The notes under the pieces are model-generated. The model was not told the DNA's origin. It worked only from the letters and a program-made list of their open reading frames with translations, and ran no database searches. From a virus, in IMG/VR virus record IMGVR_UViG_3300036668_000241, positions 1-64,000 of that record: a DNA stretch of 64,000 bases; one strand, written 5' to 3'. Both the position numbers and the translations under genes were made by a program. Positions within the stretch are counted from its first letter, which is position 1; each line of letters starts with the position of its first letter. This document shows positions 21,801-64,000 of the stretch, piece by piece.

Positions 21801-24198
21801 AATATCCAGAATTTTCATTAATACTTCCAGTAATAGCAAACATTGCAAAATCTGAAGTGTTTGTTTTATTGCTAATTCTTATATGACCCTTGATTGGGCT
21901 TGTAGAATCATCAATAGTTCTTAGAAAAACTTGAACATCAATTGCACCATCAGACTCGTCGTCAATAAACATGTTGCTAGACAATTGAAGATCTGCATTA
22001 TTAAATCTAAGTTTTCCTGTGCCAGGATCTGAGTCTGCAGTGCTACTGTTGAATGTATAGTCAAAGCTTGCTCCACCAAACACACCTGCGGGACCTTGTG
22101 TACCTGTTGCTCCAGTAGGTCCCTGTGAGCCTGTAGGTCCTGCAATACCCGTTGGGCCTGTAGGTCCTTGAACAGTGCTTGCTGCACCTGTTGGACCAGT
22201 CGAACCTGTTGGCCCGAGAGGCCCAGTTGGTCCTGTAACAGTAGAGTTAGCACCTGTTAATCCTGTAGAACCAGTTGGTCCTGTAGCACCTGTGGGACCT
22301 GTAAATCCTGTAGTACCTGTTGCGCCTGTCAACCCTGTAGGTCCAGTGACACCAATTAATCCTTGAGCACCTGTAGGTCCGGTTACTGTACTGGCAGCAC
22401 CAGTAGCACCAATTAATCCTTGAGCACCTGTAGGTCCTTGAATTCCATCAGGACCCCTAAGACCTGTCGGACCTGTAACACCCTGACCTCCAGCTACTCC
22501 GGTAGGTCCAGTAGAACCAGTTGCTCCATTAGCTCCAGGTTGACCAACAGCACCAGTAGGTCCAGTCCCGCCTGCAACACCTGTAGGTCCTGCTACACCT
22601 GCGGCACCTGTTGCACCAGCAGACCCAGGTTGGCCAACAGCACCTGTTGATCCTGTAGGACCTGTTACTGTCGAGGCTGCACCTGTTGGACCTGTAGGAC
22701 CAGTAACACCCTGAGTACCCGCTGGACCCGTTACTGTCGAGGCTGCACCTGTTGGACCTTGCAAACCTGTTGCACCTGTTGCGCCTGTTGCACCTATAGA
22801 ACCGTTAGTACCCGCTGGGCCCTGGGATCCGGTAGGCCCTTGAGCCCCTGTTGGGCCAGCAACACCTTGTGCACCAGCAGAACCGGTAGAACCCGTTGGT
22901 CCGGTTACATTAGAGTCAGCACCCTGAGAGCCAGTAGGACCTGTTATACCAATAGATCCGGTTGCACCTGTTGGGCCTTGCGGTCCCATGTCTCCTGTGC
23001 GAGCAAAAGTAATAACGACATCTTCAGCAGAAGAAAAGTTAGCTGCCAGTCCGCTAACGTATGAAACAGGAACTTTGAAGTATCCTGTTGTTTCAGTTAT
23101 AGTTCCAGTAATAGCAAAGAATGCAAAATCATTTGCATCCTGTTTGTTAGCAACACGAAGGTGTCCTTTTATAGGAGAAGTGCTGTCATCAATTGTTCGC
23201 AAGAAAGCTTGAATGTCTATTGATCCATCGGCTTCGTCATCAATAAACATAAATGTTGCGACAGGTAGACTTGCTTGGTTAAATTTTAAAGTTCCTGTTC
23301 CTGGATCAGAATCGTCTGTCTGAGTAGAGAACGTGTAGTCAAATGTTGCTCCGCCAAAAGATCCTGCTGCACCTGTTGCTCCAGTTGGTCCTTGAGTCCC
23401 TACTGCTCCGGTAGGTCCTGCAATACCCGTTGGGCCTGTAGGTCCGGGAGTAGTACTTACTGCTCCAGTAGGGCCAGTGGTCCCTTCAGGTCCTTGAACT
23501 CCCGTAGGACCTAGATTGCCTTGAATTCCCTGAACACCCTGTGGTCCTGTTACACCCTGTGGCCCTGTTACTCCTTGAGCACCTGTTGGACCTGTTAATC
23601 CTTGTGCTCCTATTGAGCCTGTGGGCCCGGTAAAGGGACCAACATTTTCCCAAGAAGATGTCTCTGTACTCCAGATATATAGGTTTAACCCAACAACATA
23701 CGCATCACCAGCAGCACCTGTAGGGTGTGCAGTAGTTAGTGCACTCTCTGTTGCGTACTCTCCTAAAAGTTGAAAAGAATACCCGGCAGGTCCCGTTGGT
23801 CCTTGAGGCCCTAATGGTCCTCGCGCAATGCCTGAACCGGCTGGCGTTACTGTAGATGGATCTGCAGTGTCGAGACGAGTAATGTCAACATCGCTCTCGT
23901 CACCTATAGGTAGATAGAATCTAAACTCGTAGGGCCTAGCACCTCTAATGCGAATTCTGGCGGTGTAGTACCAACCACGAGGACTTAAATCCCGATCGTC
24001 CGTGCAAGGAAGCTCTACCGAAAATTCACCGTTAGCATTGAGTGTTGCTTGAACGGGACCAGAAAGAATTACCGCGTCATCAAGATCTTCAATACGACTA
24101 GACGCATTAAAAGTGATTGTCCCCGAGGCAGCTAGACCGTTCACTTTTGTGAATTGGCCAACAACTACTCTCGTGGATACGTCAACAGGGTAACTCAT
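18832..24198 (-). CDS. Long collagen-like tail fibre (1788 aa) with three copies of a ~115-aa globular spacer
   Basis: N-terminus resembles actinophage minor tail proteins. Extensive Gly-X-Y. FGGAxFDYTF...IITFARTGD domain occurs 3 times. Confidence 0.85.
21182..22291. repeat. 234-bp exact direct repeat (21182-21415 and 22058-22291) within an 876-bp tandem duplication
   Basis: Base-by-base identity from TAGTCAAAGCTTGCTCC to GGTCCTGTAGCACCT; further identical patches at the same 876-bp offset. Confidence 0.9.
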
Positions 24199-41011: not shown

Positions 41012-41115
41012 GCGAGAATAGTAGCACAGATACTTAATAATTAATACACGGAGGTATATTCTTATTGTCCTTACACGAATTAGGTGTAAAATACAAGTAA
41101 TCAAAGGAGTTATTA

Positions 41116-42460: not shown

Positions 42461-42500
42461 TACAGTCCCTTCGTTATGTAGTAGTAGCAAAACTCTACCA

Positions 42501-42680: not shown

Positions 42681-42814
42681 TAGATATGATGTCCTTCTAT
42701 TTCGTTGGGAGCCTGCTTTAGTGGAGAGGTAGAGTATTCACATCTCATACAGATGTCTATACCTCTCCACACCTCAATGTCGTGACCTTGAGCGCAAGGA
42801 TTTTCTTTAGGCAT
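42680..42814 (-). CDS. Small hypothetical protein (44 aa)
   Basis: MPKENPCAQGH...CMRC; overlaps the nrdJ stop and the next start. Confidence 0.5.
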   Translation of the reverse strand: MPKENPCAQGHDIEVWRGIDICMRCEYSTSPLKQAPNEIEGHHI

Positions 42815-45800
42815 TTTTCTTTTCTTTAGCAATATCCGTAATCATTCTAACCTCGCAACTATCCGTGCTACAGAAAGCTTCTCCGATAGCATCAGATGCC
42901 ATACCTGCGTAGACTCCCGCAAAGTCAATCTGAAAGAGTTTCATTGTGTAGTCGTTATACTCTTCCTCAGTGATTTGACCGTAGGGCATCTGGGGATAAG
43001 TATCGTTTCCTTGGGGTAGGAATGAAACTGTCTTCATCTGACCGTCATACATATGAAGAACAGATCCGACATGCTTGCTTTCTGTCTCTGCATTAAACGA
43101 AATCGTAACACTAACAGAGTTGTCAGACCAGTATCGCTGTGCTTGTGCTGCTAGTGCCATTTTCTCGAAGATGGTAACTTCTTTGTCAGACCTAGATGAG
43201 TTTGAAGCAATTGGAAAGTAAACAACGGAGGTAGTGTCTGGAGATTCGAACGCTGGTTCGACCCGGTAATTAGCCATCTTGAATAGAGGAAGCATCGGAT
43301 CACTGTTAGCGAAGCGAATCGTGCGCAGAAAATACTTACCACCGGGAGTCCAATGTACACCAGGGGACTCACCAGCAAGAATAGAAACTGTTCCCGAAGG
43401 CTTAACGGTTGTTGTTTTAATCGACTCCCGAATCCCAAGCCATTCCGAGTAGATGGTGTCGTAATATTTGATAGTTCCGTATCCTTCATCCATCCATGTT
43501 CTCAGAGTTGGGAGACCCTGATTATCTGCAAAGTCTGCTACGCCCGACATTGACGCTCCAATACGACGGTTACGCTGCATGATTGCGTTGGTCTCTTCCC
43601 AGTGGGTGGGGAGGAGAGTGACAGTCTTAGCGTAGAGATAAGCAAACTTTAAAGTGCGCTTGTAGTCTTCTAGAGTGTCGTGCCGATTTAGGTAAGTCTC
43701 TACAAGGGTGCACATCTCGAAGGACTCAAGAGATTGTTCGGCGCAATTGTGAACGTACAGCCCATTGGCATCAAAAGCGTGAACTTTCTCTACGGTGACA
43801 TCATAAACCGATGCAGTTCCAAAAGGAGTCAATGACTTGAACGTTGCATAAAATGGCTTAGTGTATACGGCCTTGCTTCGGAGACTGTTGATACGAAACC
43901 ACTTATCACTCTTCTCTAAATCACAAAAGCCGATGCGATCCATATACCTATGAGCACTCTGCGCTGAAATCATTAGTCGCCAAGTTGCCTTGGTAGCATA
44001 AATTTGATAGTCGCCTGTGCCATTATTCTTTGGTAGAGACATTTCGCCTGCGGTTCGGTTCATTGCTACGGTTGATTGAATGCCTAACCGCAAGAGCATA
44101 CGCTGGACCCGCTTAAGTTGCTCTTTATCAGACTGATGTAGACGAATACTTACGCCCTTCTCTAGGTTTCCTTCTACTGAACCGTCAGCATCAAATGCGC
44201 CACGGAGGAACCCGACGTAAAACTCTGAAGACATCTGCTCAAGATCGTCTGTAATCTTCTTAGATCCCGGGCTCATACCTACAGAGTCAGCAAGATGTGC
44301 AATAGATGCACTCTTCAATCTATACTCATTCCGTCCCGGAACTTCCATAAATCCCTGCCAGTCAGACCTGTGTGAAAGTGTAGATGCTGCTGTAAAGACT
44401 GCTTCTTTGACCTCTGGGTGGTCGCCCCAGACACTTAGCACAGCACTTTTATTGTTGAAAGTTCCGTCTCCCCAGAGTTGACCAATAAGATATCCCTCTT
44501 GTTCGGAGCCAGCACCTCCCCACACACTTAATGTTCCATGATCGTGCAGGACAATCTTATCTTCGTGAGTAAGATTTCCCGCTTCTACCCACCCACGTTG
44601 GGTCATCACTTGGTGGTTGTCTGTGATCCTAAGTGTGTGTCCCTCTACCGTTGTCAAATCAAAGACCTGACGATCATGGTCTGTAAGGAAGAATCCATCT
44701 GACTCGGTTCGATACTTCTCTCCATCTACAATCGCTACGAACGGGGTGCCAACCAAGTCGCGCACCTGCCTCGGACCATCTTCAGTCAATACCCACGAAT
44801 CATCAGTGATGCAAGGGTTGTAGCCTACGACGCGATGATCTTTGTTATTTGGTGCATCTGCAAGACGACCGTACGCACGCGACACATCCATCCACAAAAC
44901 TCCGGGCTCACCGTTGCGAACTACTCCATCAAGAATTGGAGATAAGTCTTCTCCAACTTTTACATCTACTGAGTTGTTAGACATCCAGCCAAACTCTTGA
45001 CGATCTGCTGCAGGTCCAGGAGTGAACTTACCTTTGTCATCATAGGTTCCATAATTCTTGAGGTTCAAAAACTCTTCGTCATCAATAGAACCAATGAGAA
45101 GTTCGGCTGAGCGACGCACGTTACCTGAGACAACGCAGACGCCAATCATATTTCCAATATTGGCAATGTCTGTTCGAGTTACCATTTCGCCACCTCTACC
45201 ACTAAACAACTTAGTAATATGGTTGTGTAGTTTTTCTAATGGCTGATGTCCCGCTGCGGTCCCACCAAAAATCTTAATTGGTACGCCTGCAGGACGGATT
45301 AATGAGTAGTCAAACTTCACTGATTTTTGATCTGACTTAAGGTAAGAGTTAATTTGCATGGTCAAAGATTCAACCCAACCCTCTCGGGTATCAGGAATCT
45401 CATATACAACTGACTCTTCTAATGGATTGTAGATATTGAAGTTTTTGTCAGCACCCTTATTGTCGAAACCAACGCCAACGCCAAGCATGGAAGCTTCCAT
45501 AAGATATGCAAATGGTTTTGCTGGATTGTTCTTGGTCATTTCCATGCTACTAACAAAGGCACAGTTTTGAAGGGCTGCGCTATTGCGCTGCTCATTTACA
45601 AGACGAGTTCCCATAACCCAAAGACCTCTGCCAGGTGGAGTCCACTTCAGATTAAAGAGACGGTCAAAACCTTCTTTGGCTGATGATTGAGCCTTCTGGT
45701 CATTCCACGGTAAACGATTAGTTTTGCAGTGATCTTTTTGAAGAGAGTACATGCCATTGATGACACGCTCACATACATCTGTCCACGTCTCTTTAGTGCC

Positions 45801-45947
45801 GTCTTCTTTGATCCTTGAGTAAGTTCTTAAGAATGTAATTTCCCCAACAGAGTTGCCTCCTGCGTCTCTATAACCAAACGGTGCTTTCTTATCTGCATAA
45901 GTAGCAACAAAGTCTTCAGAAAGCCGAAAAGAAAATAAAAGTGACAC
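42807..45947 (-). CDS. nrdJ: Class II (adenosylcobalamin) ribonucleotide reductase, monomeric type, intein-containing
   Basis: PPGRGLW, NCAF, GNVRRSA, NP|CAEQ, TVKPSGT, C-terminal CSTDSC. Confidence 0.92.
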   Translation of the reverse strand: MSLLFSFRLSEDFVATYADKKAPFGYRDAGGNSVGEITFLRTYSRIKEDGTKETWTDVCERVINGMYSLQKDHCKTNRLPWNDQKAQSSAKEGFDRLFNLKWTPPGRGLWVMGTRLVNEQRNSAALQNCAFVSSMEMTKNNPAKPFAYLMEASMLGVGVGFDNKGADKNFNIYNPLEESVVYEIPDTREGWVESLTMQINSYLKSDQKSVKFDYSLIRPAGVPIKIFGGTAAGHQPLEKLHNHITKLFSGRGGEMVTRTDIANIGNMIGVCVVSGNVRRSAELLIGSIDDEEFLNLKNYGTYDDKGKFTPGPAADRQEFGWMSNNSVDVKVGEDLSPILDGVVRNGEPGVLWMDVSRAYGRLADAPNNKDHRVVGYNPCITDDSWVLTEDGPRQVRDLVGTPFVAIVDGEKYRTESDGFFLTDHDRQVFDLTTVEGHTLRITDNHQVMTQRGWVEAGNLTHEDKIVLHDHGTLSVWGGAGSEQEGYLIGQLWGDGTFNNKSAVLSVWGDHPEVKEAVFTAASTLSHRSDWQGFMEVPGRNEYRLKSASIAHLADSVGMSPGSKKITDDLEQMSSEFYVGFLRGAFDADGSVEGNLEKGVSIRLHQSDKEQLKRVQRMLLRLGIQSTVAMNRTAGEMSLPKNNGTGDYQIYATKATWRLMISAQSAHRYMDRIGFCDLEKSDKWFRINSLRSKAVYTKPFYATFKSLTPFGTASVYDVTVEKVHAFDANGLYVHNCAEQSLESFEMCTLVETYLNRHDTLEDYKRTLKFAYLYAKTVTLLPTHWEETNAIMQRNRRIGASMSGVADFADNQGLPTLRTWMDEGYGTIKYYDTIYSEWLGIRESIKTTTVKPSGTVSILAGESPGVHWTPGGKYFLRTIRFANSDPMLPLFKMANYRVEPAFESPDTTSVVYFPIASNSSRSDKEVTIFEKMALAAQAQRYWSDNSVSVTISFNAETESKHVGSVLHMYDGQMKTVSFLPQGNDTYPQMPYGQITEEEYNDYTMKLFQIDFAGVYAGMASDAIGEAFCSTDSCEVRMITDIAKEKKNA
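43746..44813 (-). mobile_element. Intein (356 aa) with LAGLIDADG homing endonuclease
   Basis: Begins CITDDSWV after GYNP, ends VYDVTV...LYVHN before Cys. Internal YLIGQLWGDG and FLRGAFDADG. Confidence 0.92.
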
Positions 45948-49261: not shown

Positions 49262-49708
49262 TCATACTAGAATTTTATATTCAAGTGCTTCTTTGATAAC
49301 TTCTGCTATGGCTCTGTCCCTATCTACATATGTGTCAAATGTTTCTAGGACTCTAGTGGCAAAATATACTCCCTGTCTTACTCCAAAGTCGATTGCTTGC
49401 TCTTCAGAATTGAATTGGGTGTCGGTCTGAGTTTTTGAGAACTCATATCCCTGCATGAATCCTTCGTCGTAGTCCACGTTGTTGTCTTTACTCGCGTCTA
49501 AGTCTTCTTTTTTATTTGTTCTACTTATTTTCATGTTTTCTTTTATTCGACGTTCGGTTTCAAGTAGTCCAACGTAGGACGTAGATTCAATAACTACTGC
49601 TATGCCATCGCTGGCAACTCTTTTTAATTCGATTAGCGCGTCTCGAGCGCCGTCTTCATACCCGCCGTAATATCCTTCGTCGTAATCCACGTTGCCATCT
49701 TTAATCAT
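49262..49708 (-). CDS. Hypothetical protein with duplicated NVDYDEG motif
   Basis: 148-aa ORF coupled to the upstream gene. Confidence 0.6.
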   Translation of the reverse strand: MIKDGNVDYDEGYYGGYEDGARDALIELKRVASDGIAVVIESTSYVGLLETERRIKENMKISRTNKKEDLDASKDNNVDYDEGFMQGYEFSKTQTDTQFNSEEQAIDFGVRQGVYFATRVLETFDTYVDRDRAIAEVIKEALEYKILV

Positions 49709-50133
49709 CTCAAGAAACCTTCTTTACGAGCCTTAGCTACCCAACGGGCAGAGGTACTGTGTGGTGCACCTGTTGCTTTAGAGATTGCTACTAAGGGACG
49801 TTCGTTTCGTGTTAGGGCATCAATATAGAAATGAGACAAGTTCTTAAGAAAGACATCATTAAGAGAGTTAGGACGGTCTAACGATGGACGAGTCTTAGCC
49901 GGTTGTGCGCTGGACCTGTTCTTGATAATTGTCTCTACTGCACCGAGTGGAAACTCTCGCAGATCATATGCAGACATTGACTTATTTACTTGCGTCTTAA
50001 ACTTTACCTCAGAGATTGAGCCTTTATTATCTGTAAGAATAGTAGCGGACCCCGTGAAGTTAGAATATTTAACCGTGTAGATATTCTTTTCTGTCTCTGA
50101 CTTCTTAACAGTTATTGTTTCTTGAAAACTCAT
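49705..50133 (-). CDS. C-terminal HTH DNA-binding protein
   Basis: PLVAISKATGAPHSTSARWVAKARKEGFL; own promoter TTGACA-18-TAGACT at 50211-50182. Confidence 0.65.
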   Translation of the reverse strand: MSFQETITVKKSETEKNIYTVKYSNFTGSATILTDNKGSISEVKFKTQVNKSMSAYDLREFPLGAVETIIKNRSSAQPAKTRPSLDRPNSLNDVFLKNLSHFYIDALTRNERPLVAISKATGAPHSTSARWVAKARKEGFLR

Positions 50134-51998: not shown

Positions 51999-53033
51999 TT
52001 AAGTTGCTTTCACGGTAAAACCATTTTTCTTTCCTAGCTTTATAAGTGAAGCTCTACCAGGGATTCCGTCAGCGTCTGCGCCTGTGTAACCCAGCTTTTT
52101 CTGCCACTTGGCGTAGGCTGCCTTAGTAGCAGCATTAAATACGGGAGAGACTTGCTTGGCTAGTCCTACCTCCTTTTGAAGGGCTTCTTGTACCGTGCCG
52201 ACCGAAGCGTTCTTTTGCCGTGGCTTTAGATCGCTAAGCTTTACGACTGGCTTCGGTGCTGGCTTTGGCTTGGCTGGCACCACTTCACACACAACTACTG
52301 CTGGTGGGTCGGACTTTGGGATTTTTCCAACAATAATCTGTTCTGGCTCTGGTGTTGGGGTGGGTTTGACAACCAAGACGCCTTTTGAATTGGCTTTTAC
52401 AAAGGCAGTGACTTCTCTGCGCGTCTTCTCTGAATCTATTACGTTCCTTCGGGCGATTCCTACGACCTGATGCCACCAATCGAGATCCTGCTTGACATCG
52501 GGTTTGCGGGTAGTCCAATCTTGATGACGGATCACTCGATCTACTGGGTACGACAGGTTGAATGGGCGCAGGGCGTTAAGTAACGCAGCGGAGAGCAAAG
52601 CTGTAGATATCACCTGCTCGAGGGTCATGCCACCTTTAGTTCCGTTGATGGCTGCCGTTGTACCAAGAGATTCGATTTCGATTCCGTACAGGTACTCGTT
52701 ACCTTGATCCTTGGGAACGGTAACGTCGGGAAGTGTTTTTCTTTTGAAAGTTACAGGTCCGCCTGAACCAGCATGATAGGCGCTGGTACCTGAAACAACT
52801 TCAACGGTACCGTCGCGGTTTACGAGGAAGTGACATGCGCGCACTGGAGCATAAGGGTTGCCGTTGACAATCCAGTTAAGGGAGTTCGTGCCAGCCGTGT
52901 GGTGGAGAACTACGCCGACACTCGGGGACGTTCCGTAAACGTCAATCTTCTTGGAATCCCAGCCGTCAATGAACTTTGTGGGAACTCCGTACTTCTTGAG
53001 TTTGTACTTGAGCCTTCGTTGTGAAACTCTCAT
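51999..53033 (-). CDS. Endolysin: N-acetylmuramoyl-L-alanine amidase (Amidase_2) with C-terminal peptidoglycan-binding domain
   Basis: VVLHHTAG, CHFLVNRDG, AYHAG, GIEIE, IRHQDW..RKPD; Pro/Lys linker; TKAAYAKWQKKLGY...ADGIPG. Confidence 0.88.
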   Translation of the reverse strand: MRVSQRRLKYKLKKYGVPTKFIDGWDSKKIDVYGTSPSVGVVLHHTAGTNSLNWIVNGNPYAPVRACHFLVNRDGTVEVVSGTSAYHAGSGGPVTFKRKTLPDVTVPKDQGNEYLYGIEIESLGTTAAINGTKGGMTLEQVISTALLSAALLNALRPFNLSYPVDRVIRHQDWTTRKPDVKQDLDWWHQVVGIARRNVIDSEKTRREVTAFVKANSKGVLVVKPTPTPEPEQIIVGKIPKSDPPAVVVCEVVPAKPKPAPKPVVKLSDLKPRQKNASVGTVQEALQKEVGLAKQVSPVFNAATKAAYAKWQKKLGYTGADADGIPGRASLIKLGKKNGFTVKAT

Positions 53034-56234: not shown

Positions 56235-56401
56235 GATGTATAGAATCACTTCTTAAAAATCGGTAAACCATAAATATGCCTTGTTTCTATAATAGATCTG
56301 CTACTAAGTAGTGGGTCTATTATAGTTTATGTTTATAAAATCCCCAAAAAGCTGCTCGCTCTCTCTAAACTCGACAAAAAACGTCCTGGAATTGCGCTAC
56401 G

Positions 56402-56704
56402 ATGTACTTTCGTAAACTTTACGAAAGAATGGAGCTAGCTGTAATGTTCAACAACAATTTCTGGATCGCAGCTTCCGAACGTGCCATCAAGACTTTTGCA
56501 CAAGCCTTGCTTGCCCTTATCGGAACTGATATGGTAGGGATTACTTCCCTTGACTGGCCTGCACTTCTCGCGGCCTCCGCAACGGCGACTCTGCTCTCCG
56601 TTCTCTCATCCGTAGGTTCCGCTAACTTCGGCAAGAACCCTGGACCGTCTCTTGCAGACGAGACAACCGAGTCGAAAACAACCTTTATTGAAAACGTAAA
56701 ATAA
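56402..56704 (+). CDS. Holin, r1t-type
   Basis: FWIAASERAIKTFAQALLALIG...DW..LLAASATATLLSVLSSV...GPSL; probable start MFNNN at 56444. Confidence 0.85.
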   Translation: MYFRKLYERMELAVMFNNNFWIAASERAIKTFAQALLALIGTDMVGITSLDWPALLAASATATLLSVLSSVGSANFGKNPGPSLADETTESKTTFIENVK

Positions 56705-58721: not shown

Positions 58722-58768
58722 CAAACGGCCTGCCGCGTGCAAGACTTCCAGGAGCAGTTATACTGTTA

Positions 58769-58842
58769 GGGGCGGTAGCTCAGCTGGTTAGAGCCCCGAA
58801 CTCATAATTCGGTCGTCGTCGGTTCGAGCCCGACCCGCCCCA
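58769..58842 (+). tRNA. tRNA with CAU anticodon (Ile2-like or elongator Met)
   Basis: GGGGCGG/CCGCCCC acceptor, GCTC/GAGC D stem, CCGAA-CTCATAA-TTCGG, GTCGG-TTCGAGC-CCGAC, A73; followed by CCC rather than CCA. Confidence 0.92.
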
Positions 58843-58845
58843 CCC

Positions 58846-59241
58846 GTGTCTCTTAGTAGCAAAACGAATATACTTAAAAAGACAAAACGACAAACTACGA
58901 TTGGAAATCCAATTATGTTTTTAGAAGCCCTAATTCTTGGAGCCTTATACCGTCAAGAGAGTGACGCAATAGAGTATGCATATGAACAGCCTAAGTCAGA
59001 GAAAGAACGAGACGAACTTATTTTTTCTTATGTCGGTTTAGGATTTCTTATCTGGCCTCTTCTTTCCTGTATCGGCTTGTTTAAGTCTAAATGCAGATGG
59101 TATGTTTCTATACTTCCCGTCGTGTTCGGCGCGATCCTTTTATATGTAGGATATTCAAACGGGGCATGGACTTATTACTTCACTTTCAGTGCTCTCTGGG
59201 CGCTTGTTGCATTTTTTGTACTAGGACTTACAACACCTTAA
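58846..59241 (+). CDS. Multi-TM membrane protein
   Basis: Three hydrophobic helices; likely start MFLEAL at 58915. Confidence 0.6.
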   Translation: MSLSSKTNILKKTKRQTTIGNPIMFLEALILGALYRQESDAIEYAYEQPKSEKERDELIFSYVGLGFLIWPLLSCIGLFKSKCRWYVSILPVVFGAILLYVGYSNGAWTYYFTFSALWALVAFFVLGLTTP

Positions 59242-59253
59242 GGGAGAATAATA

Positions 59254-59574
59254 ATGTTATTGCGAAACTACATCGGATCCGAGATCCGGCGCGCCCGTGT
59301 TGACAAAGACATGACTTTGCGAAGTATGGCGATTGTATCCAATGTAACTATGAGTTATATTTCCGAAGTTGAGCGCGGCCTGAAGGAACCGAGTTCCGAG
59401 GTACTTCGTTCCCTATGCACCGCACTTGACTATCCGGTTTCCTCCCTACTGACTGAGGTTAGTAGCAAGATGTTGATACATGAGATCGAACTGGAGTTGA
59501 AGCTCGGCAGCTACCCAACGTCAATAAAGTATTCCAAAGTGATCCAGGATGGCGGGTTGACAACCGTCGGATAA
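59254..59574 (+). CDS. XRE-family HTH regulator, ClgR-like
   Basis: LLRNYIGSEIRRAR...TLR......SYISEVERGLKEPSSEVLRSLCTALD closely follows the actinobacterial ClgR/PopR pattern. Confidence 0.8.
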   Translation: MLLRNYIGSEIRRARVDKDMTLRSMAIVSNVTMSYISEVERGLKEPSSEVLRSLCTALDYPVSSLLTEVSSKMLIHEIELELKLGSYPTSIKYSKVIQDGGLTTVG

Positions 59575-59585
59575 AGTTCTATAAT
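59557..59585 (+). promoter_or_regulatory. Perfect-consensus sigma70/SigA promoter
   Basis: TTGACA-17 nt-TATAAT. Confidence 0.9.
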
Positions 59586-59639
59586 AAAAGACGGAATGAC
59601 AAAAGACAAACAACACCTATATCTACACAAAGGGACATC

Positions 59640-60377
59640 ATGACAACAGGACTTAAGTTGAGCAAAGATCGCAAGGTTGCCAACATCGTAAATAAAGCAG
59701 GCACGCAAGCCGCTATGCACAACGCATTCGGGTTACCGGCAGGCGATCAATTCTCGTGCGGAGGCATGACAGATGTATGCGGCTCGATTTGCTACGCAAA
59801 CAAACTAGAGAAGTTATTTCCTTCTGTTCGCGTATTGCTGATGCACAACTGGAACCTGCTAAAAGATGCGGATTTCGACACAATGGTCAACCTACTTGAT
59901 GAAGTTATTTGCAAGTTTGAATCAGAGTGCGAGAAACGTTCCGCCAAAAAGATATTCAGAATTCACTGGGACGGCGACTTCTTTAGCATTGACTACGCTC
60001 GAGCATGGATCGAAGTTATCCGTTGTCATCCTGATATACAATTCTGGTCATACACTCGGCAGGCGTTCGCTGCAGTTGAATTACATAAGTCTGGACTTAT
60101 CAACGTAGCAAACTATTTCAGCGCGGATAGTGCAAACTTGCCTATAGCAACAATGCTACGAAAGACCTACGGCATACGCCTAGCAATGCTTGCTGATAAT
60201 TTCCAAGACGGTCAAGCCGTTATGCGTGAGATCACCGGCAAGGTTGGTGCAAAGTGCCCAGAGAATAATAAAGCGCAGGCGTTCGGATTAATCACAACCG
60301 AAGGATCGGCATGTAGTAGGTGCCGCCTATGTGTGTTCGGCAAGGCTGACATAGTATTCAGCGCGACTAAAAAATAG
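59640..60377 (+). CDS. GP88-family protein (radical-SAM-like Cys motif)
   Basis: FGLPAG..SCGGMTDVCGSICYA, FRIHWDGDFFS, FWSYTR, CPE, CSRCRLC. Confidence 0.75.
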   Translation: MTTGLKLSKDRKVANIVNKAGTQAAMHNAFGLPAGDQFSCGGMTDVCGSICYANKLEKLFPSVRVLLMHNWNLLKDADFDTMVNLLDEVICKFESECEKRSAKKIFRIHWDGDFFSIDYARAWIEVIRCHPDIQFWSYTRQAFAAVELHKSGLINVANYFSADSANLPIATMLRKTYGIRLAMLADNFQDGQAVMREITGKVGAKCPENNKAQAFGLITTEGSACSRCRLCVFGKADIVFSATKK

Positions 60378-60417
60378 TTTAGGCAGAGGGACTGCCACCA
60401 AATGACGGGAGTACGGA

Positions 60418-60660
60418 ATGAAAGTAAAAGATCTAATTCAGCAACTTAACGACCACTACAAACCGGAGGACGATATCTTCTTGATTTCTTGGGACAAGAC
60501 CTTCGGAGCCGGTATGACAGAAGACGGCGTGCTAAGCGATGAGCAATGGGAAACCGCTGTTGCACTTATGGAGTTTAGAGAGCACAGAGATATGGAAAAC
60601 GTAAACGGAGAGATGACAGAACTAATCCGTGAGAGAGTAAACGAAGCACTAGAGGACTGA
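60418..60660 (+). CDS. Hypothetical protein
   Basis: MKVKDLIQQL start typical of small phage proteins; RBS GGGAG. Confidence 0.65.
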   Translation: MKVKDLIQQLNDHYKPEDDIFLISWDKTFGAGMTEDGVLSDEQWETAVALMEFREHRDMENVNGEMTELIRERVNEALED

Positions 60661-60689
60661 GATGTTTCTTAGTAGCACGAGTTAGAAGG

Positions 60690-60718
60690 TTGACAACCGC
60701 CAGAAAAAATGTAATAAT
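60690..60718 (+). promoter_or_regulatory. sigma70/SigA-type promoter
   Basis: TTGACA-17-AATAAT; shares GGTTGACAACCG with the 59557 promoter. Confidence 0.7.
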
Positions 60719-60809
60719 AGAACTTGTACGGCGAGGGTATGCGACCCCTAACGACTCGCTCCTTCGCCGTACAACCAAATGACAATTACAATACGACGGG
60801 AGCAAGACA

Positions 60810-61304
60810 ATGGGTTTAGATCAGTTCTTGAGAGTAAGTAAGACCTTCGGCTCGTATATCAACGACACCGAATCCGCTTCATACGACGCAATTAAGGCGG
60901 CGGCAGGGCTGGATAAGATCGGTAATTCGAACAGCAAATATGTCACAGTGGAAGTAACCGCACTCTACTGGCGCAAGGCAAACGCGATCCACGGCTGGTT
61001 TGTCAACGAACTGGCAGGCGGCGAGGACGAGTGCCAAGTAATTCCAGTAACCCGTGAAAACATAACTACGTTGCGCGATCTTTGCGTAGACGCTATGAGT
61101 GTTCCAGCAGGTATGTCTCTTGATACTCATGCGCGTACGGTGCTTCCCCCATCCGATGGGTTCTTCTTCGGTGGGTCAGAAATTGACGATTACTATATTC
61201 AAGATCTGAAGGACACAATCGAAGGTATAAACCGTATCCTCGAAGAACTTCCAGAAACCGGCGAGAGCTGGGACTGGAGTTTGACATATCAAGCATCGTG
61301 GTGA
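60810..61304 (+). CDS. Conserved-type phage hypothetical protein
   Basis: MGLDQ...YWRKANAIHGWFV...GFFFG...YQASW. Confidence 0.75.
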   Translation: MGLDQFLRVSKTFGSYINDTESASYDAIKAAAGLDKIGNSNSKYVTVEVTALYWRKANAIHGWFVNELAGGEDECQVIPVTRENITTLRDLCVDAMSVPAGMSLDTHARTVLPPSDGFFFGGSEIDDYYIQDLKDTIEGINRILEELPETGESWDWSLTYQASW

Positions 61305-61310
61305 CACGGC

Positions 61311-61339
61311 TTGACAACGGGCAACCGATTCGGTAGCCT
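61311..61339 (+). promoter_or_regulatory. sigma70/SigA-type promoter
   Basis: TTGACA-17-TAGCCT. Confidence 0.75.
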
Positions 61340-61345
61340 CTAATC

Positions 61346-61427
61346 TTGTTGGTAGAGAACCCCCCTTCTCCCAACAACGAGTCCCGTCAGAGTTCTCCCC
61401 CGTCCTCTGGCGGGACTCACCTTTCTT
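61346..61427 (+). ncRNA. 6C-like small RNA (two hairpins with C-rich loops)
   Basis: Hairpin 1: TTGTTGG-TA-GAGAA-[CCCCCC]-TTCTC-CCAACAA. Hairpin 2: 14-bp stem with loop TTCTCCCCCGTC. U-rich tail. Starts at the expected TSS. Confidence 0.65.
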
Positions 61428-61483
61428 AGTAGCACGAAAAAACAAACGACAAAACGACAAAAACTAGAAACCAGGAGTATACA

Positions 61484-61627
61484 ATGCCAATCTTTATCGA
61501 AGTTGAAGACACGGACGGCACGATCTTCGAGTGGGTAACAGACAGCGAAACTTTAGACAAGTTGCGCGGCCATCTTGGAGAACCGCAAAATGTCTACTCT
61601 TTAGTAGCAAGTGATCTCGCGGCTTGA
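61484..61627 (+). CDS. Small acidic protein (47 aa)
   Basis: Below track cutoff; RBS AGGAG; MPIFIEVEDTDGTIFEW... Confidence 0.65.
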   Translation: MPIFIEVEDTDGTIFEWVTDSETLDKLRGHLGEPQNVYSLVASDLAA

Positions 61628-61652
61628 CCGCGTGAAAGTAAACCTCTATAAT
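61624..61652 (+). promoter_or_regulatory. sigma70/SigA-type promoter
   Basis: TTGACC-17-TATAAT. Confidence 0.85.
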
Positions 61653-61671
61653 AGGTAAACACCTACAAGAT

Positions 61672-62346
61672 ATGGAGAACAAGATGCCAAACTGGGTTCA
61701 TAACAGCCTAAACATTACCGGAGACAAAGAGCAGATCACGCGCCTAATCGCGCAGGTTTCTGCCCCCTACACCACAAAAGGTTCTGAGTGGGTAGACGGC
61801 AAGATGATTACGGTAGATGCCGTAGTCACAGATCAAGATTTCTCATTCTGGAATATCTCACGGCCTGAAGGCGAGGACTTGGATAAGTACAACGAGTCTA
61901 TGGGAGGTGGCACACACGCAACCCCTTTCTGGTACGAATGGAATAACACCCACTGGAATACTAAGTGGGAAGCCTGTGATGCCGTGAGTGACCTAATCCA
62001 CGGAGAGAAGGAGAGTCAGGTTTCCTACCACTTCCAAACGGCGTGGAGTCCACCAACTATCGTACTTGTTAAGTTGGCACAGCAATACCCAACGCTAAAC
62101 ATGACATTCTTCTGGGAAGAAGAGCAGGGTTTCGGTGAGGACTTAGAGATTACCGGCGGGGAGATTGTCGTCAATGATTCGTGGGATATCCCAGAGACAC
62201 ATGAGGACACAATGAAACGGCGCGACTACTGCTATTGCGAAGATGCAGAAGATCAAGATGATATTCCGTTTGATGATTGCCCGACTAAGTTTGATCCGAA
62301 TATGATAATTGACAAAAACGAAATAGAAATGGAGGCACTAATATGA
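61672..62346 (+). CDS. DUF1281/YubB-like ferredoxin-fold protein
   Basis: MPNWVHNSL (likely start 61684)...WYEWNNTHWNTKW...FQTAWSPP...YPTL...EE. Confidence 0.75.
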   Translation: MENKMPNWVHNSLNITGDKEQITRLIAQVSAPYTTKGSEWVDGKMITVDAVVTDQDFSFWNISRPEGEDLDKYNESMGGGTHATPFWYEWNNTHWNTKWEACDAVSDLIHGEKESQVSYHFQTAWSPPTIVLVKLAQQYPTLNMTFFWEEEQGFGEDLEITGGEIVVNDSWDIPETHEDTMKRRDYCYCEDAEDQDDIPFDDCPTKFDPNMIIDKNEIEMEALI

Positions 62347-62576
62347 GTAACGTGACATCACTTACTTACTTCGCAACTGACGGGAACTACGGGAACGCAG
62401 GAGGTCTCACCGTTGTAGATACGTCTGCATGGACAGACCTTGACTTCGAGTTGCTAGATGGCGTGACAGATGAGTTGCGCCCTACTGCCGGTCGAACGAT
62501 CTCCGATTGGATTGAGGGTGGTCGAACAGATGACTACAATACTTACTTCCAGAAATTGGGAATAGATATTCCTTAG
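62343..62576 (+). CDS. Hypothetical protein
   Basis: YFATDGNYG...VVDTSAWT; RBS GGAGG. Confidence 0.65.
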   Translation: MSNVTSLTYFATDGNYGNAGGLTVVDTSAWTDLDFELLDGVTDELRPTAGRTISDWIEGGRTDDYNTYFQKLGIDIP

Positions 62577-62595
62577 TAGCACGATTTATATGATC

Positions 62596-62620
62596 GTCCC
62601 TGCCGTGAGGTGGGGACTTT
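62596..62620 (+). terminator. Probable intrinsic terminator
   Basis: GTCCCTGCC-GTGA-GGTGGGGAC followed by TTT. Confidence 0.6.
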
Positions 62621-62680
62621 CGTATTTAGTAGCAAAGTTGCGTATCTACTTAGTAGCAACACGCAAACTTCGATATAGAT

Positions 62681-62709
62681 TTGACAAGTACTCGAATAAC
62701 CTGTAAGTT
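62681..62709 (+). promoter_or_regulatory. sigma70/SigA-type promoter
   Basis: TTGACA-17-TAAGTT (TG directly upstream of -10). Confidence 0.75.
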
Positions 62710-62754
62710 TGCTCTTGTAAGGAAAACACCTACTAAACGACAGAAGGAAATAAA

Positions 62755-63246
62755 ATGGACGTTACTAAGTCAGTTCAGGGGATCGCCGTCTATGGTGAGT
62801 TTGTACGCCCCGGTACTACCACGCAGGTTATTGTTACTCCTGACGGACGCAACACATCAGGCGACAAGGTTGAGATGCACATTGTGCGCCGAACAATCAG
62901 CCTATCTACACCACGCAAGCAATGGCGTTTCAGCACACTATCTACCACTGACCCAATTACAACCTACGCAGGGTCAAACGTAGACGCTCTAAAAGAGATC
63001 TACTGCGACAATCGCATGAGGTACGCCTCGTCATTGTTCGAGCAACTGGCACGCGGAGATTGGTTCTTAGTAGCAGATCCAATTCTGGTTGAGGTCTCCA
63101 AAATGGATATGGATCATATCTCCATAAACAAGACACCTACCAAATTGCTTTATCGCATCACGCAATCCCGTCTAATGATTCCGGGATATCCAACTGACGT
63201 TGTAAATGAAGAAATAACCACAACACCTACACTTGCCACTATTTAG
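62755..63246 (+). CDS. Hypothetical protein
   Basis: 163 aa; RBS AAGGA. Confidence 0.65.
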   Translation: MDVTKSVQGIAVYGEFVRPGTTTQVIVTPDGRNTSGDKVEMHIVRRTISLSTPRKQWRFSTLSTTDPITTYAGSNVDALKEIYCDNRMRYASSLFEQLARGDWFLVADPILVEVSKMDMDHISINKTPTKLLYRITQSRLMIPGYPTDVVNEEITTTPTLATI

Positions 63247-63271
63247 TAGCAACGAGCCGAAGGATAAAAAA

Positions 63272-64000
63272 ATGTTATCAGAAAAGTTTGCAAATATCGG
63301 ATCAGTCTCAGAGCCAACAAAGTTCTGGAGCATGGTTGTCGAAGTCGCTGCACAAATGGACGTACCAGAGTCTGCTATGAAATTGTCATCAGAGGTATTG
63401 CCACAGGGTCGGTACGTCGAACGTGCTGCAAATGGGACACGCAAGCCAAAGACTCCAAAGGCACTCCCCACCGTTGAGTCATTAGATGCAGATACCGAAT
63501 ATCTGCGACCTAATGGAATGATCTATCACACCCGCGAATGGGGAGAGCATGGAGATGTCGCTGCCCTACGCAAGGCGCGTGAAGTTACGGCGCAAGCCTT
63601 CACAGAAAGTTCCGGCTCTCCAATGTTCTCGCTGCTCTACGGCGCACCCGGCTGCGGAAAGACTGCACTAGTTGAGGCTGCTTTCGGTGAGAATATCTAC
63701 ACGATCTTGGGGACTGGCGATACCGAAGTGGCAGACATGATCGGTGGATATATTCAGACACCTAGTGGTGGCTTCGAGTGGTTGGACGGCGACCTATTAA
63801 AGGCTGCCGAAAATGGTGGAGTCTACTTCATAGATGAGGTCGGACTCATTGACCCGAAGGTTCTCTCCATTGTGTACGGACTCATGGACGGACGGCGCGA
63901 GATCACTGTCACCGCAAACCCAGAGCGAGGCACAGTCAAGGCTCACCCAGAGTTCTATGTAATCGCTGCTACTAACCCAAACGCACCCGGCGTTCGGTTG
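63272..64000 (+). CDS. MoxR/CbbQ/NirQ-type AAA+ ATPase (runs off right edge)
   Basis: Not in track (truncated). Translates to LLYGAPGCGKT (Walker A), DMIGGY...WLDG.L, YFIDEV (Walker B), VIAATNP. Confidence 0.85.
   Translation, partial: MLSEKFANIGSVSEPTKFWSMVVEVAAQMDVPESAMKLSSEVLPQGRYVERAANGTRKPKTPKALPTVESLDADTEYLRPNGMIYHTREWGEHGDVAALRKAREVTAQAFTESSGSPMFSLLYGAPGCGKTALVEAAFGENIYTILGTGDTEVADMIGGYIQTPSGGFEWLDGDLLKAAENGGVYFIDEVGLIDPKVLSIVYGLMDGRREITVTANPERGTVKAHPEFYVIAATNPNAPGVRL

What the first reader, a model, noticed from the sequence alone, without database searches (positions are those of the whole stretch)
58853..63251. Oriented 9-mer TTAGTAGCA repeated ten times through the early-gene arm: candidate stoperator-like regulatory system
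Seen: TTAGTAGCA (preceded by C/T in 9 of 10 cases) occurs at 58853, 59459, 60669, 61426, 61601, 62573, 62626, 62650, 63067 and 63243. All are on the transcribed strand, within 4.4 kb, whereas a given 9-mer is expected about once per 4^9 = 262 kb at uniform composition. Most sit at gene ends or in intergenic gaps. Two supply the TAG stop of a gene (62574, 63244), three end 12-22 nt upstream of a -35 box, and three cluster around one terminator/promoter junction. Isolated copies also occur at 52123 (+) and at 45545, 49786, 56299 and 63967 (-). Known: asymmetric, transcription-oriented sites at gene boundaries are the signature of cluster A mycobacteriophage stoperators. Inference: this is the binding site of a phage protein that shuts off or activates the early arm, or a directional DNA-handling signal. 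Alternative: the reverse complement TGCTACTAA resembles an extended -10, and near-matches at 41018-41026 and 42481-42489 sit at promoter positions, so the copies could be antisense promoters.
Basis: partly seen in the sequence, partly recalled or inferred. Interest (0 to 1): 0.82.

Follow-up and report, generated by a model that had tools for sequence, protein, structure and literature searches.

The report
Conserved nine-letter phage control word
A nine-letter DNA word is written about forty times into one block of small genes of a lake-water phage and is kept at the same places in distant relatives, so it is a real control signal, most likely the docking site of a phage regulator protein.

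Summary
The uniform orientation is an effect of the window edge. The whole 72.3-kb phage record holds 40 copies (19 +, 21 -), 36 of them in a block of small genes starting at 58.85 kb. The word is under selection. Three lineages whose proteins are 54-81% identical, and whose G+C differs by about 10 points, keep it at the same places and in the same orientation. It is written into coding DNA by codon choice and by changes at variable residues. One lineage carries CTAGTAGCA in 5 of 5 copies, and more distant relatives carry other words. Two position classes exist. Sense-strand copies lie at gene ends, terminators and promoters. Reverse copies lie inside transcription units, often 11-20 nt before a start codon. 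Every copy upstream of the AAA-ATPase gene is +, and - copies dominate after it. Best reading (about 0.5): sites for a phage-encoded sequence-specific DNA-binding regulator, working like stoperators without being a member of that family. A 191-aa protein with two helix-turn-helix domains, encoded inside the block in sister genomes, is the candidate reader. Binding is untested.

The parts
58853..58861 (+). word copy, intergenic, 9 nt after tRNA-Met and 53 nt before the start of gene 58915-59241
   Evidence: The tRNA and this copy are absent from sister genome G002.
59459..59467 (+). word copy inside the ClgR-like HTH gene 59254-59574, read V-S-S
   Evidence: VSS is found in 3 of 14 aligned homologues, all from the own lineage.
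60669..60677 (+). word copy 8 nt after the stop of gene 60418-60660 and 12 nt before the -35 box of promoter-like site 60690-60718
61426..61434 (+). word copy in the leader of gene 61484-61627, 11 nt after hairpin 61383-61414
   Evidence: The hairpin plus word is kept in L342 (2134) and, as CTAGTAGCA, in L343 (452).
61601..61609 (+). word copy in the last codons of gene 61484-61627 (L-V-A), 14 nt before the -35 box of 61624-61652
62573..62581 (+). word copy that supplies the TAG stop of gene 62343-62576, just before terminator-like hairpin 62596-62617
   Evidence: Kept at the same gene end in L342 (3254), L343 (1653) and L424 (179).
62626..62634 (+). word copy 8 nt after the hairpin
   Evidence: L424 has two copies after this terminator (242, 289) and L342 has one (3419).
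62650..62658 (+). word copy 22 nt before TTGACA (62681)-17-TAAGTT (62704-62709)
63067..63075 (+). word copy inside gene 62755-63246 (L-V-A at variable residues)
   Evidence: Not kept in L342, L343 or L424.
63243..63251 (+). word copy that supplies the TAG stop of gene 62755-63246, 20 nt before the AAA-ATPase start at 63272
   Evidence: Kept in L342 (4026) and L424 (908), where it is read through as V-S-S, and in L343 (2225), where it is the stop.
63967..63975 (-). reverse copy spelled by the codons of the invariant A-A-T-N of the AAA-ATPase
   Evidence: This codon set occurs in 2 of 97 distinct genes, namely the two TTAGTAGCA lineages in that set. It is also spelled in L424.
56299..56307 (-). 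reverse copy at the centre of inverted repeat 56287-56325, which carries a TATAAT box on each strand, upstream of holin gene 56444-56704
   Evidence: Kept in G002.
52123..52131 (+). isolated copy inside amidase gene 51999-53033 (- strand gene)
   Evidence: Role not examined.
49786..49794 (-). isolated copy inside gene 49705-50133
   Evidence: Role not examined.
45545..45553 (-). isolated copy inside ribonucleotide reductase gene 42807-45947
   Evidence: Role not examined.
59557..59585 (+). promoter-like site TTGACA-17-TATAAT (12 of 12 matches)
   Evidence: L203 6557-6585
60690..60718 (+). promoter-like site (11 of 12 matches, TG before the second hexamer)
   Evidence: L203 7690-7718
61624..61652 (+). 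promoter-like site TTGACC-17-TATAAT (11 of 12 matches)
   Evidence: L203 8624-8652
62596..62617 (+). terminator-like hairpin between genes 62343-62576 and 62755-63246
   Evidence: L203 9596-9617
58915..64000 (+). left part of the word-rich arm: nine small + strand genes and the start of the AAA-ATPase gene (63272-64312 in the record). The arm continues to about 73.5 kb outside the window.
   Evidence: extent

Best explanation
(C)TTAGTAGCA is the recognition site of a phage-encoded, sequence-specific DNA-binding protein that controls transcription of the 15-17 kb arm of small genes, each with its own promoter and terminator. The site works as double-stranded DNA in either orientation. Copies that overlap promoters (in the spacer, at the start site, or a few bases before the -35 box) would act on initiation. 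Copies at gene junctions and inside genes would act on elongating polymerase, as stoperators do. Which orientation is used where follows partly from what the flanks must also do. The sense form offers TAG-TAG stops and a pyrimidine run after hairpins. The reverse form offers a purine run usable as a ribosome-binding site, and A-T-K codons. Shown here: the enrichment, the sharp word boundaries, the confinement to one arm, the two position classes, the conservation of place and orientation across diverged lineages, the recoding of genes to spell the word, and a one-letter lineage variant.
For: Enrichment: 15 copies against 0.66 expected in the window and 40 in the record, none before 45.5 kb. 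It is the most over-represented 9-mer of the record. Sister genomes hold 42-46 copies, and G002 has none in its last 22 kb. Sharp word: the 9-mer occurs 40 times, its two 8-mer sub-words 45 and 44 times, and C precedes it in 28 of 40. Pyrimidines at -4 to -1 occur in both orientation classes (12-15 of 19 + copies, 17-19 of 21 - copies, background 0.45 on the + strand), as expected for one duplex-reading factor. Position: 15 of 18 + copies are non-coding or give the stop codon (background 0.23, P = 1e-7). Five of 18 - copies lie 0-20 nt before a start codon (background 0.044, P = 8e-4). Selection between strains: 0 mismatches in 300 word positions against 4.4 expected, and one 1-nt indel, among 251 mismatches in 17118 aligned bases. 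Selection between lineages: L342 (AAA 77%, vWA 66% identical, G+C 57%) has 11 copies in 7.7 kb. L424 (AAA 81%, vWA 63%, G+C 58%) has 31 copies in 17 kb. By my reading, 9 of the 11 G000 copies between 62573 and 66325 recur exactly in L424 at the same place and orientation, and a tenth recurs as CTAGTAGCA. Recoding: the invariant A-A-T-N of the ATPase spells the word in 2 of 97 distinct genes, exactly the word-bearing lineages in that set. A-T-K at two vWA sites was seen only in the own lineage among 80 sequences, and later also in L342 and L424. L342 and L424 use TTA GTA GCA for an L-V-A that G000 writes differently. Reader co-evolution: L343 has CTAGTAGCA in 5 of 5 copies, three at orthologous places. 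76 of 76 viral loci with 58-71% ATPase identity have 0-2 copies and other top words, and 79 of 84 further loci are not enriched. Candidate reader: a 191-aa protein inside the arm in G001-G004. 30 of 44 aligned family members match Pfam Sigma70_r4. The model (pLDDT 88.6) has two helical domains. Of 80 loci around homologues, only the six whose protein is at least 54% identical carry the word (5-36 exact copies); the 74 with 46% identity or less have 0-2.
Against: No binding, footprint or transcript evidence of any kind. No RNA run was listed. The candidate protein itself reaches no Pfam or PHROG threshold. Its fold matches are weak and generic for HTH domains (Foldseek best E 0.11, VIA best Z 6.0). 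Its link to the word rests on two independent word-bearing lineages and is confounded with phylogeny. The gene is not in the window or in the G000 record, which ends before it. The N-terminal recognition helix is nearly invariant across the whole family, which does not fit a change of specificity there. An exact:1-mismatch ratio this high is unusual for a transcription-factor site. In L424, - copies are preceded by GAT in 11 of 20, while by my reading 0 of 11 + copies are followed by ATC, so the two classes may not be equivalent. Five to seven start-proximal copies per genome fit an RNA or translation role equally well.
Confidence: 0.5

Rival explanations
1. RNA-level signal. The reverse copies (UGCUACUAA plus a purine run) are start-associated leader elements that tune translation or mRNA stability, like the start-associated sequences of Cluster K mycobacteriophages. 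The sense copies (UUAGUAGCA) in leaders and trailers are their complement and could pair with them in cis or in trans.
For: Five of 18 - copies in G000 lie 14-19 nt before a start codon, and two more touch a start (67618, 71116). The same layout recurs before unrelated genes in G002-only cassettes and in L424 (at least 7 rows). All such copies have the same orientation. Adjacent + / - pairs would fold into 9-bp hairpins (70796/70814; L424 6280/6291 and 9300/9315). In 64-72 kb each transcription unit starts with a + copy followed by - copies.
Against: A single RNA-binding factor cannot read both the word and its complement. Ten + copies upstream of the ATPase gene have no - partner. All eight 1-mismatch variants in 64-72 kb are + copies, with no compensating - variants. 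Copies deep inside long genes (ATPase, vWA) are conserved although far from any start. Several + copies lie before promoters, between transcription units.
Confidence: 0.15
2. Promoter-type element. TGCTACTAA would be a variant -10-like box read by a phage-directed polymerase form. It would drive sense transcription in the right part of the arm and antisense transcription over the left part.
For: The word resembles the TGnTATAAT boxes that are abundant in relatives (14-23 per 20-kb locus in many loci), and the word-bearing loci have none (0 in L419-L424). The family of the candidate reader matches sigma-70 region 4. Purines follow the reverse form. From recall, sets of phage-specific promoter words are known to change together between related phages.
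Against: Start-proximal copies end only 11-20 nt from the start codon with the purine-rich ribosome-binding site in between, so a start site about 7 nt downstream would cut it off. No partner box sits at a fixed distance. The structural genes have no copy. About half of the copies would be antisense promoters, many pointing into terminators. The last base of the would-be -10 box is A, not the T required by the scan consensus.
Confidence: 0.1
3. DNA-handling signal rather than gene control. The possibilities are a Chi-like protective site, priming or replication sites, targets of a nicking or modifying enzyme, or short homologies that promote cassette exchange.
For: Each copy could add benefit wherever it lies, which would explain copies written into coding DNA. 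Orientation switches at one conserved point, the ATPase gene start, in three lineages. Four of 14 junction ends of the 7 cassette differences between G000 and G002 lie within 15 bp of a copy, where about 1.5 are expected by my rough estimate. One deletion in G000 starts 5 nt after copy 69973.
Against: The word is confined to one arm. Its places relative to stops, hairpins, promoters and starts are conserved across lineages, which a pure DNA-handling signal does not need. Both orientations are mixed to the right of the switch (8 + and 17 - in G000). The other cassette junctions use unrelated microhomologies. Copies inside conserved genes are not module borders. No methylase, nickase or recombinase was seen among the proteins scanned, but not every gene was scanned.
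Confidence: 0.15
4. No function: the copies are relics of duplicated cassettes, or arise by chance.
For: A few copies share longer flanks (66325/66876, 62573/70796), and a paralogous cassette family exists.
Against: Flanks carry almost no information beyond -4 to +2. There is exact conservation across lineages with about 70-76% nucleotide identity in the best genes and a 10-point G+C shift, as well as codon-level spelling. 0 of 100 shuffles reach the observed count.
Confidence: 0.02

Closest known systems
Operator/stoperator sites of Cluster A mycobacteriophages (L5, Bxb1, TipsytheTRex) and their monomeric two-domain immunity repressor
   Same: Dozens of copies of a short asymmetric word lie at promoters and in short spaces between genes. 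The word differs between related phages, as if co-evolving with its reader. The candidate reader here is of similar size (191 aa against 183 aa) and is predicted to have two helix-turn-helix-type domains joined by a linker. Basis: passages read in PMC9283540 and PMC6550527, compared.
   Different: The core is 9-10 bp rather than 13 bp. Sites are confined to one arm of 15-17 kb instead of spread over the genome. Both orientations are used (19 + and 21 -), and many copies lie inside coding sequence. There is no detectable sequence homology to the solved repressor (7tz1 absent at E up to 10), and the fold match is generic (VIA Z 4.5 over 44 residues). No sign of lysogeny was seen in the parts examined. 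Binding is untested.
Start-associated sequences (SAS) of Cluster K mycobacteriophages
   Same: An asymmetric repeated word restricted to the non-structural half of the genome. A subset lies just upstream of start codons, in one orientation, before unrelated genes. Function is unknown in both cases (passages of PMC3203893).
   Different: According to that paper, SAS contain the Shine-Dalgarno core and lie 3-7 bp from the start, nearly all in one orientation, with 11-19 copies. Here the word lies upstream of the purine run, 11-20 nt from the start. Only about a third of the reverse copies are start-proximal. An equal number of copies in the opposite orientation sit at gene ends and promoters.
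Sigma-70-type extended -10 promoters of the related phages (TGnTATAAT)
   Same: Similar letters at 6 of 9 positions. Both are the most abundant short word of the homologous arm in their respective genomes.
   Different: No T at the last position, no consistent partner box and no fixed distance to starts. Half of the copies are antisense to the genes.

Membership tests
Cluster A-type stoperator system | more than twenty copies of one short asymmetric site per genome | tested here: met
   40 copies in the 72-kb record and 42-46 in sister contigs. The word is not its own reverse complement.
Cluster A-type stoperator system | sites located throughout the genome (both arms) | tested here: not met
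   No copy in 1-45.5 kb and 36 of 40 after 58.85 kb. G002 has none in its last 22 kb.
Cluster A-type stoperator system | sites in promoter regions and in short intergenic spaces | tested here: met
   12 intergenic and 3 stop-codon copies among 18 + copies, and 6 intergenic among 18 - copies. Copies abut promoter-like boxes. However, 15 of 36 are fully inside coding sequence.
Cluster A-type stoperator system | [quoted passage not shown] | tested here: not met
   19 + and 21 - on an arm transcribed in one direction. Orientation is uniform only upstream of the ATPase gene (10 of 10) and follows position class elsewhere.
Cluster A-type stoperator system | bound by a monomeric repressor homologous to L5 gp71, with an N-terminal HTH plus a Stoperator domain | tested here: inconclusive
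   The candidate 191-aa protein has two predicted HTH-type domains. There is no sequence match to 7tz1 at E up to 10, and the fold match is VIA Z 4.5, rmsd 1.7 over 44 residues.
Cluster A-type stoperator system | repressor binding stops initiation and elongation and confers immunity | not testable with these tools
   No culture, no RNA run listed and no binding assay.
Cluster K start-associated sequences | the word contains the Shine-Dalgarno core and lies 3-7 bp upstream of the start codon | tested here: not met
   The word lies upstream of the purine run. The gaps to the start codon are 14, 18, 14, 14 and 19 nt for the five start-proximal copies, and the other 13 - copies are 65 nt or more from a start.
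Cluster K start-associated sequences | restricted to the non-structural half, nearly all in one orientation | tested here: inconclusive
   Restriction to the non-structural arm is met. The single orientation is met only for the start-proximal subset (all -) and not for the word as a whole.
Sigma-70-type promoter (-10 or extended -10 element) | A at position 2 and T at position 6 of the -10 hexamer, a -35 partner at 16-18 nt or a TG extension, and a start site upstream of the ribosome-binding site | tested here: not met
   The would-be hexamer ends in A. No conserved partner appears within 25 nt on either side. There is too little room before start codons.
Chi-like or other orientation-dependent DNA-handling sites | orientation set by DNA ends or replication direction rather than by gene features, with genome-wide spread | tested here: inconclusive
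   A conserved orientation switch at the ATPase gene exists. However, copies are tied to gene features and confined to one arm. Host genomes could not be examined.

The most novel reading that the evidence does not exclude
An orientation-coded regulon in a probably lytic, roughly 130-kb actinophage. One monomeric two-HTH protein reads about 45 asymmetric sites and acts as a polar barrier to RNA polymerase. Under this reading, the conserved flip of site orientation at the AAA-ATPase gene (all + before it, mostly - inside transcription units after it, + again between units) divides the arm into a sub-block that is shut off and a sub-block that stays readable but is insulated unit by unit. Sites are written even into conserved enzymes by codon choice.
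Probability: 0.2. Interest if true: 0.8.

Novelty: new variant of a known kind. Interest (0 to 1): 0.62.

Why it matters
Multi-site, phage-wide control words are well studied mainly in Cluster A mycobacteriophages, and the start-associated sequences of Cluster K still have no known function. Here the same kind of signal appears in uncultured freshwater actinophages, and its comparative record is unusually clear. Place and orientation are conserved across a 10-point G+C shift. The word is spelled into an invariant enzyme motif by codon choice. There is a one-letter lineage variant, and a testable candidate reader. This makes two questions directly testable: how a dispersed site set and its reader change specificity together, and whether site orientation encodes different regulatory outcomes. 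It also gives annotators a marker for the early or host-takeover arm of this phage family.

Tried and rejected
Close cultured relatives: megablast against INPHARED found nothing. blastn found only the tRNA and a 70% match of the ATPase to a 129-kb uncultured actinophage record. Its paper was seen only as a search listing.

Expression: no RNA holder was listed for 10 kb of the arm.

Known RNA families: only the tRNA was found, plus a sub-threshold match on its opposite strand.

The 16-mer scan found multiple hits only in the own lineage.

Cassette-boundary idea: 4 of 14 junction ends lie within 15 bp of a copy. This is suggestive only, and the other junctions use unrelated microhomology.

A -10-like box just upstream of copies: by eye on the listing, 5 of 40 copies have a TAnnnT ending 1-5 nt upstream. 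About 4 are expected by my rough estimate, so this is not enriched.

Gene 62755-63246 as reader: it is conserved in 75 of 76 relatives and evolves fast. Its model has pLDDT 85. Foldseek found nothing at E 0.001 or better, and the best VIA match is Z 5.3 to a PARP1 WGR domain. No case can be made. An apparent two-residue insertion at copy 63067 was an alignment artefact.

ClgR-like HTH at 59254: its match to ClgR has E 2e-16. Homologues lie in only 12 of 76 non-close relatives, none with the word.

Palindromic TAGTACTA after TATAAT in some relatives: it is present in a minority of loci and is not a general counterpart.

Crude ORF tiling of relatives was too imprecise to use.

My first codon-model gene caller missed many small genes. 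Genes in 58.9-72.1 kb were set by hand and checked for open frames.

Literature: the word and its complement occur in 297 papers. The 15 listed are primers or unrelated sequences. I saw no report of this word as a phage signal, but only that listing was inspected. Supplements were not opened.

Genome-contig scan with the candidate reader: 4 loci on MAG contigs labelled Rhodoluna, Aquiluna or Actinomycetota. This is a host hint only.

Full report
OBSERVATION. TTAGTAGCA occurs 15 times in the window. The mean in 100 dinucleotide-preserving shuffles is 0.66, the largest shuffle value is 3, and none reaches 15. All ten + copies between 58853 and 63243 and the five isolated copies are at the stated coordinates. 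These are: C or T before 9 of the 10 copies; two copies giving a TAG stop; three copies ending 12, 14 and 22 nt before a -35 box; and three copies around one hairpin.

The window is bases 1-64000 of a 72328-base IMG/VR virus record, estimated about 55% complete. The whole record has 40 copies, 19 + and 21 -. The word read backwards occurs 0 and 1 times. No copy lies before 45.5 kb, and 25 lie in 64.0-72.3 kb on both strands. The uniform orientation is therefore a property of the stretch upstream of the AAA-ATPase gene only.

THE WORD. It is the most over-represented 9-mer of the record and it is sharply bounded. The 9-mer occurs 40 times and its two 8-mer sub-words 45 and 44 times. C precedes it in 28 of 40 copies. 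Outside positions -4 to +2 the flanks carry almost no information, so the copies are not relics of one duplicated segment.

Pyrimidines at -4 to -1 are preferred in both orientation classes: 12-15 of 19 + copies and 17-19 of 21 - copies, against a background of 0.45 on the + strand.

One-mismatch forms (37 in the record) are near background. The exception is eight + forms in 64-72 kb, most of which sit at gene ends or hairpins. One of these is an exact copy in a sister genome.

CONTEXT. Bases 1-53 kb carry - strand genes. They include collagen-repeat fibre proteins, terminase, primase-polymerase (+ strand), a ribonucleotide reductase with an intein, an RNA ligase and an amidase. From 53.7 kb on, a + strand arm of small genes follows. 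It has promoter-like sites matching the consensus at 11-12 of 12 positions, and terminator-like hairpins.

Near-identical sister contigs (G001-G004, 98-99% identity) carry 42-46 copies. In G002 the word-rich stretch ends about 17 kb after it starts, and the following 22 kb have none.

TWO POSITION CLASSES (hand-curated genes). Of 18 + copies from 58853 on, 12 are intergenic, 3 give the stop codon and 3 are coding. The 15 that are non-coding or give a stop compare with a background of 0.23 (P = 1e-7). The + copies lie after gene ends, 0-15 nt after hairpins, 6-32 nt before -35 boxes, or directly after a -10 box (68112, 69230).

Of 18 - copies, 12 are coding. Most are read as A-T-K, one as A-T-N, and two in the L-L frame. 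Five lie 14-19 nt before a start codon with a purine run in between (background 0.044, P = 8e-4).

Along the arm, all 10 copies upstream of the ATPase start are +. From there on, 17 are - and 8 are +, and the + copies mark the borders of transcription units.

SELECTION BETWEEN STRAINS. G000 and G002 differ at 251 of 17118 aligned bases. None of the differences falls in the 300 word positions, where 4.4 are expected. One copy differs by a 1-nt indel.

The seven cassette differences between the two genomes bring further copies in the same layouts before unrelated genes.

SELECTION BETWEEN LINEAGES. A metagenome scan with the ATPase, and a viral scan with the candidate reader, found three diverged lineages.

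- L342 has G+C 57%. Its ATPase is 77% identical, vWA protein 66%, and gene-62755 protein 55%. It has 11 copies in 7.7 kb.
- L424 has G+C 58%. Its ATPase is 81% identical and vWA protein 63%. It is 76% identical in nucleotides to L342. It has 31 exact copies, and 40 of the 8-mer core, in 17 kb.
- L343 has G+C 60% and an ATPase 76% identical. It has CTAGTAGCA in 5 of 5 copies, three of them at places orthologous to G000 copies.

I compared by eye. Of the 11 G000 copies between 62573 and 66325, 9 recur exactly in L424 at the same place and orientation, and a tenth recurs as the one-letter variant. About 8 or 9 of the 12 copies between 61426 and 66236 recur in L342. The orientation flip at the ATPase gene is kept in all three lineages.

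The copy at the end of gene 62755-63246 is a stop codon in G000 and L343 but is read through as V-S-S in L342 and L424. What is conserved there is the DNA word, not the coding.

The invariant A-A-T-N of the ATPase is spelled with the word's codons in 2 of 97 distinct genes, exactly the two word-bearing lineages in that set. L424 spells it too. L343, whose variant cannot encode N at that place, has no copy listed there.

A-T-K at two vWA sites, A-T-K in gene 68468-68641 and V-S-S in gene 59254-59574 occupy variable residues and were unique to the own lineage in the first set of relatives.

All 76 viral loci with 58-71% ATPase identity have 0-2 copies and other top words. Examples are GGGTAAAAA (23 + and 5 - in L017) and a 16-mer containing AAAAGTAAA (16 + and 1 - in L031). 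Of 84 further loci, only the own lineage, L342 and L343 are enriched.

WHO READS IT. The HTH protein at 59254 is ClgR-like (E 2e-16). I recall that this family binds palindromes as a dimer. It is absent from most relatives.

The fast-evolving conserved gene 62755-63246 gave a confident model but no convincing fold match.

Inside the arm of G001-G004, about 1 kb beyond the last stretch of G002 that aligns with G000, lies a 191-aa protein. It has no hit in G000. On its own it matches no family. It has 184 homologues, and 30 of 44 aligned members match Pfam Sigma70_r4. The alignment and the model (pLDDT 88.6) show an N-terminal HTH, a proline-rich linker and a second conserved helical domain with an HTH-like pair of helices.

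Fold searches give only weak, generic matches. Foldseek's best rows are ECF sigma factors at E 0.11 and above. VIA Z is 6.0 or less, to ParB, KorB and DnaA DNA-binding domains, and 4.5 to the Cluster A repressor.

Of the 80 viral loci around homologues, the six whose protein is at least 54% identical carry the word. The 74 with 46% identity or less do not. The C-terminal recognition-type helix differs between these two groups, while the N-terminal one is almost invariant. This is a lead, not proof.

MECHANISM. One duplex-reading factor best explains four things. The same core and near flanks occur in both orientations. Copies are conserved far from any start. Copies overlap promoter spacers and start sites. 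One-letter variants are specific to a lineage.

The link between orientation and position can be explained by what the flanks must also provide: stops and a pyrimidine run in one orientation, a ribosome-binding purine run and A-T-K codons in the other. The conserved flip at the ATPase gene leaves room for a polar effect on polymerase.

The RNA or translation reading is the main rival for the start-proximal subset. The promoter reading is weakened by the lack of room before start codons. DNA-handling readings are weakened by the tie to gene features and the confinement to one arm.

COMPARISON. The system works most like the operator/stoperator sets of Cluster A mycobacteriophages (passages read in PMC9283540 and PMC6550527). 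In part it resembles the start-associated sequences of Cluster K (PMC3203893). It fails defining features of both. It has no single orientation and no genome-wide spread. No homology of the candidate reader was detected. The word is not the ribosome-binding site itself. I therefore file it as a new variant of a known kind.

LIMITS. There are no binding or transcript data. The host is unknown; MAG labels Rhodoluna and Aquiluna for homologue-bearing contigs are only a hint. Gene starts are hand-set. Orthology of sites was judged by eye from printed contexts. The search of earlier findings and contig look-up by protein were closed, and supplements were not consulted.

Noticed in passing
window 1-24200 (- strand genes 3-1367, 14790-16457, 17155-18789, 18832-24198): Four large proteins carry collagen triple-helix repeats (up to 13 stretches in the 1788-aa protein). 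Their GGACCTAC-type codon repeats are the other most frequent short words of the record.
   Followed up: partly
window 42807-45947 (-): A B12-type ribonucleotide reductase is interrupted by an intein with a LAGLIDADG domain. One isolated word copy (45545) lies inside this gene.
   Followed up: no
window 59254-59574 (+): The only clear HTH protein of the arm within the window is a close sequence relative of actinobacterial ClgR, the Clp gene regulator (E 2e-16). This suggests that the phage mimics a host stress regulator.
   Followed up: partly
window 56287-56325, upstream of holin gene 56444-56704: An inverted repeat with 18 paired positions carries a TATAAT box on each strand, with a reverse word copy at its centre, just upstream of an r1t-type holin gene. 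It looks like a regulated pair of divergent or overlapping promoters.
   Followed up: partly
record 67.9-72.3 kb (L009 about 6020-6060, 7125-7160, 8255-8285, 9590-9625, 10195-10225): A second repeated element: hairpins whose stems consist of a C/G clamp plus an A-run and T-run. At least five copies occur, mostly just before promoters of the CTTGCA type. They are distinct from the 9-mer word.
   Followed up: no
record 66439-66831 and 71721-72113; G002-only insert after 69981; remnant at record 69982-70005: A family of paralogous 130-aa genes, each with its own promoter. G002 has a third copy, of which G000 keeps only the last codons, after a deletion that starts 5 nt beyond word copy 69973.
   Followed up: partly
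window 58749-59253 versus G002: The tRNA-Met gene, the first word copy and the small membrane-protein gene after it are replaced in sister genome G002 by a different small membrane-protein gene.
   Followed up: partly
loci L425-L498 versus L419-L424: Many relatives carry 14-23 extended -10 boxes (TGnTATAAT) per 20-kb locus. The word-bearing lineages carry none there and use promoters with -35 boxes (TTGACA or CTTGCA) instead.
   Followed up: partly
window 61311-61483: The leader of gene 61484-61627 has a promoter-like TTGACA-17-TAGCCT followed by two hairpins. The second hairpin (61383-61414), with its loop sequence, is conserved in L342 and L343 just before the word. This may be an attenuator.
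   Followed up: no
L499, L501 (genome contigs): Homologues of the candidate reader lie on MAG contigs labelled Rhodoluna sp. and Aquiluna sp. This hints that the phage family infects freshwater Microbacteriaceae. The contigs may instead be phage DNA binned by mistake.
   Followed up: no
L201 4246-4836 and 5412-5822 (G002, beyond the record end): At the far end of the word-rich stretch, sister genomes encode a proteasome-subunit-like protein and a protein with a peptidoglycan-binding domain. Each gene ends in or beside a word copy.
   Followed up: no
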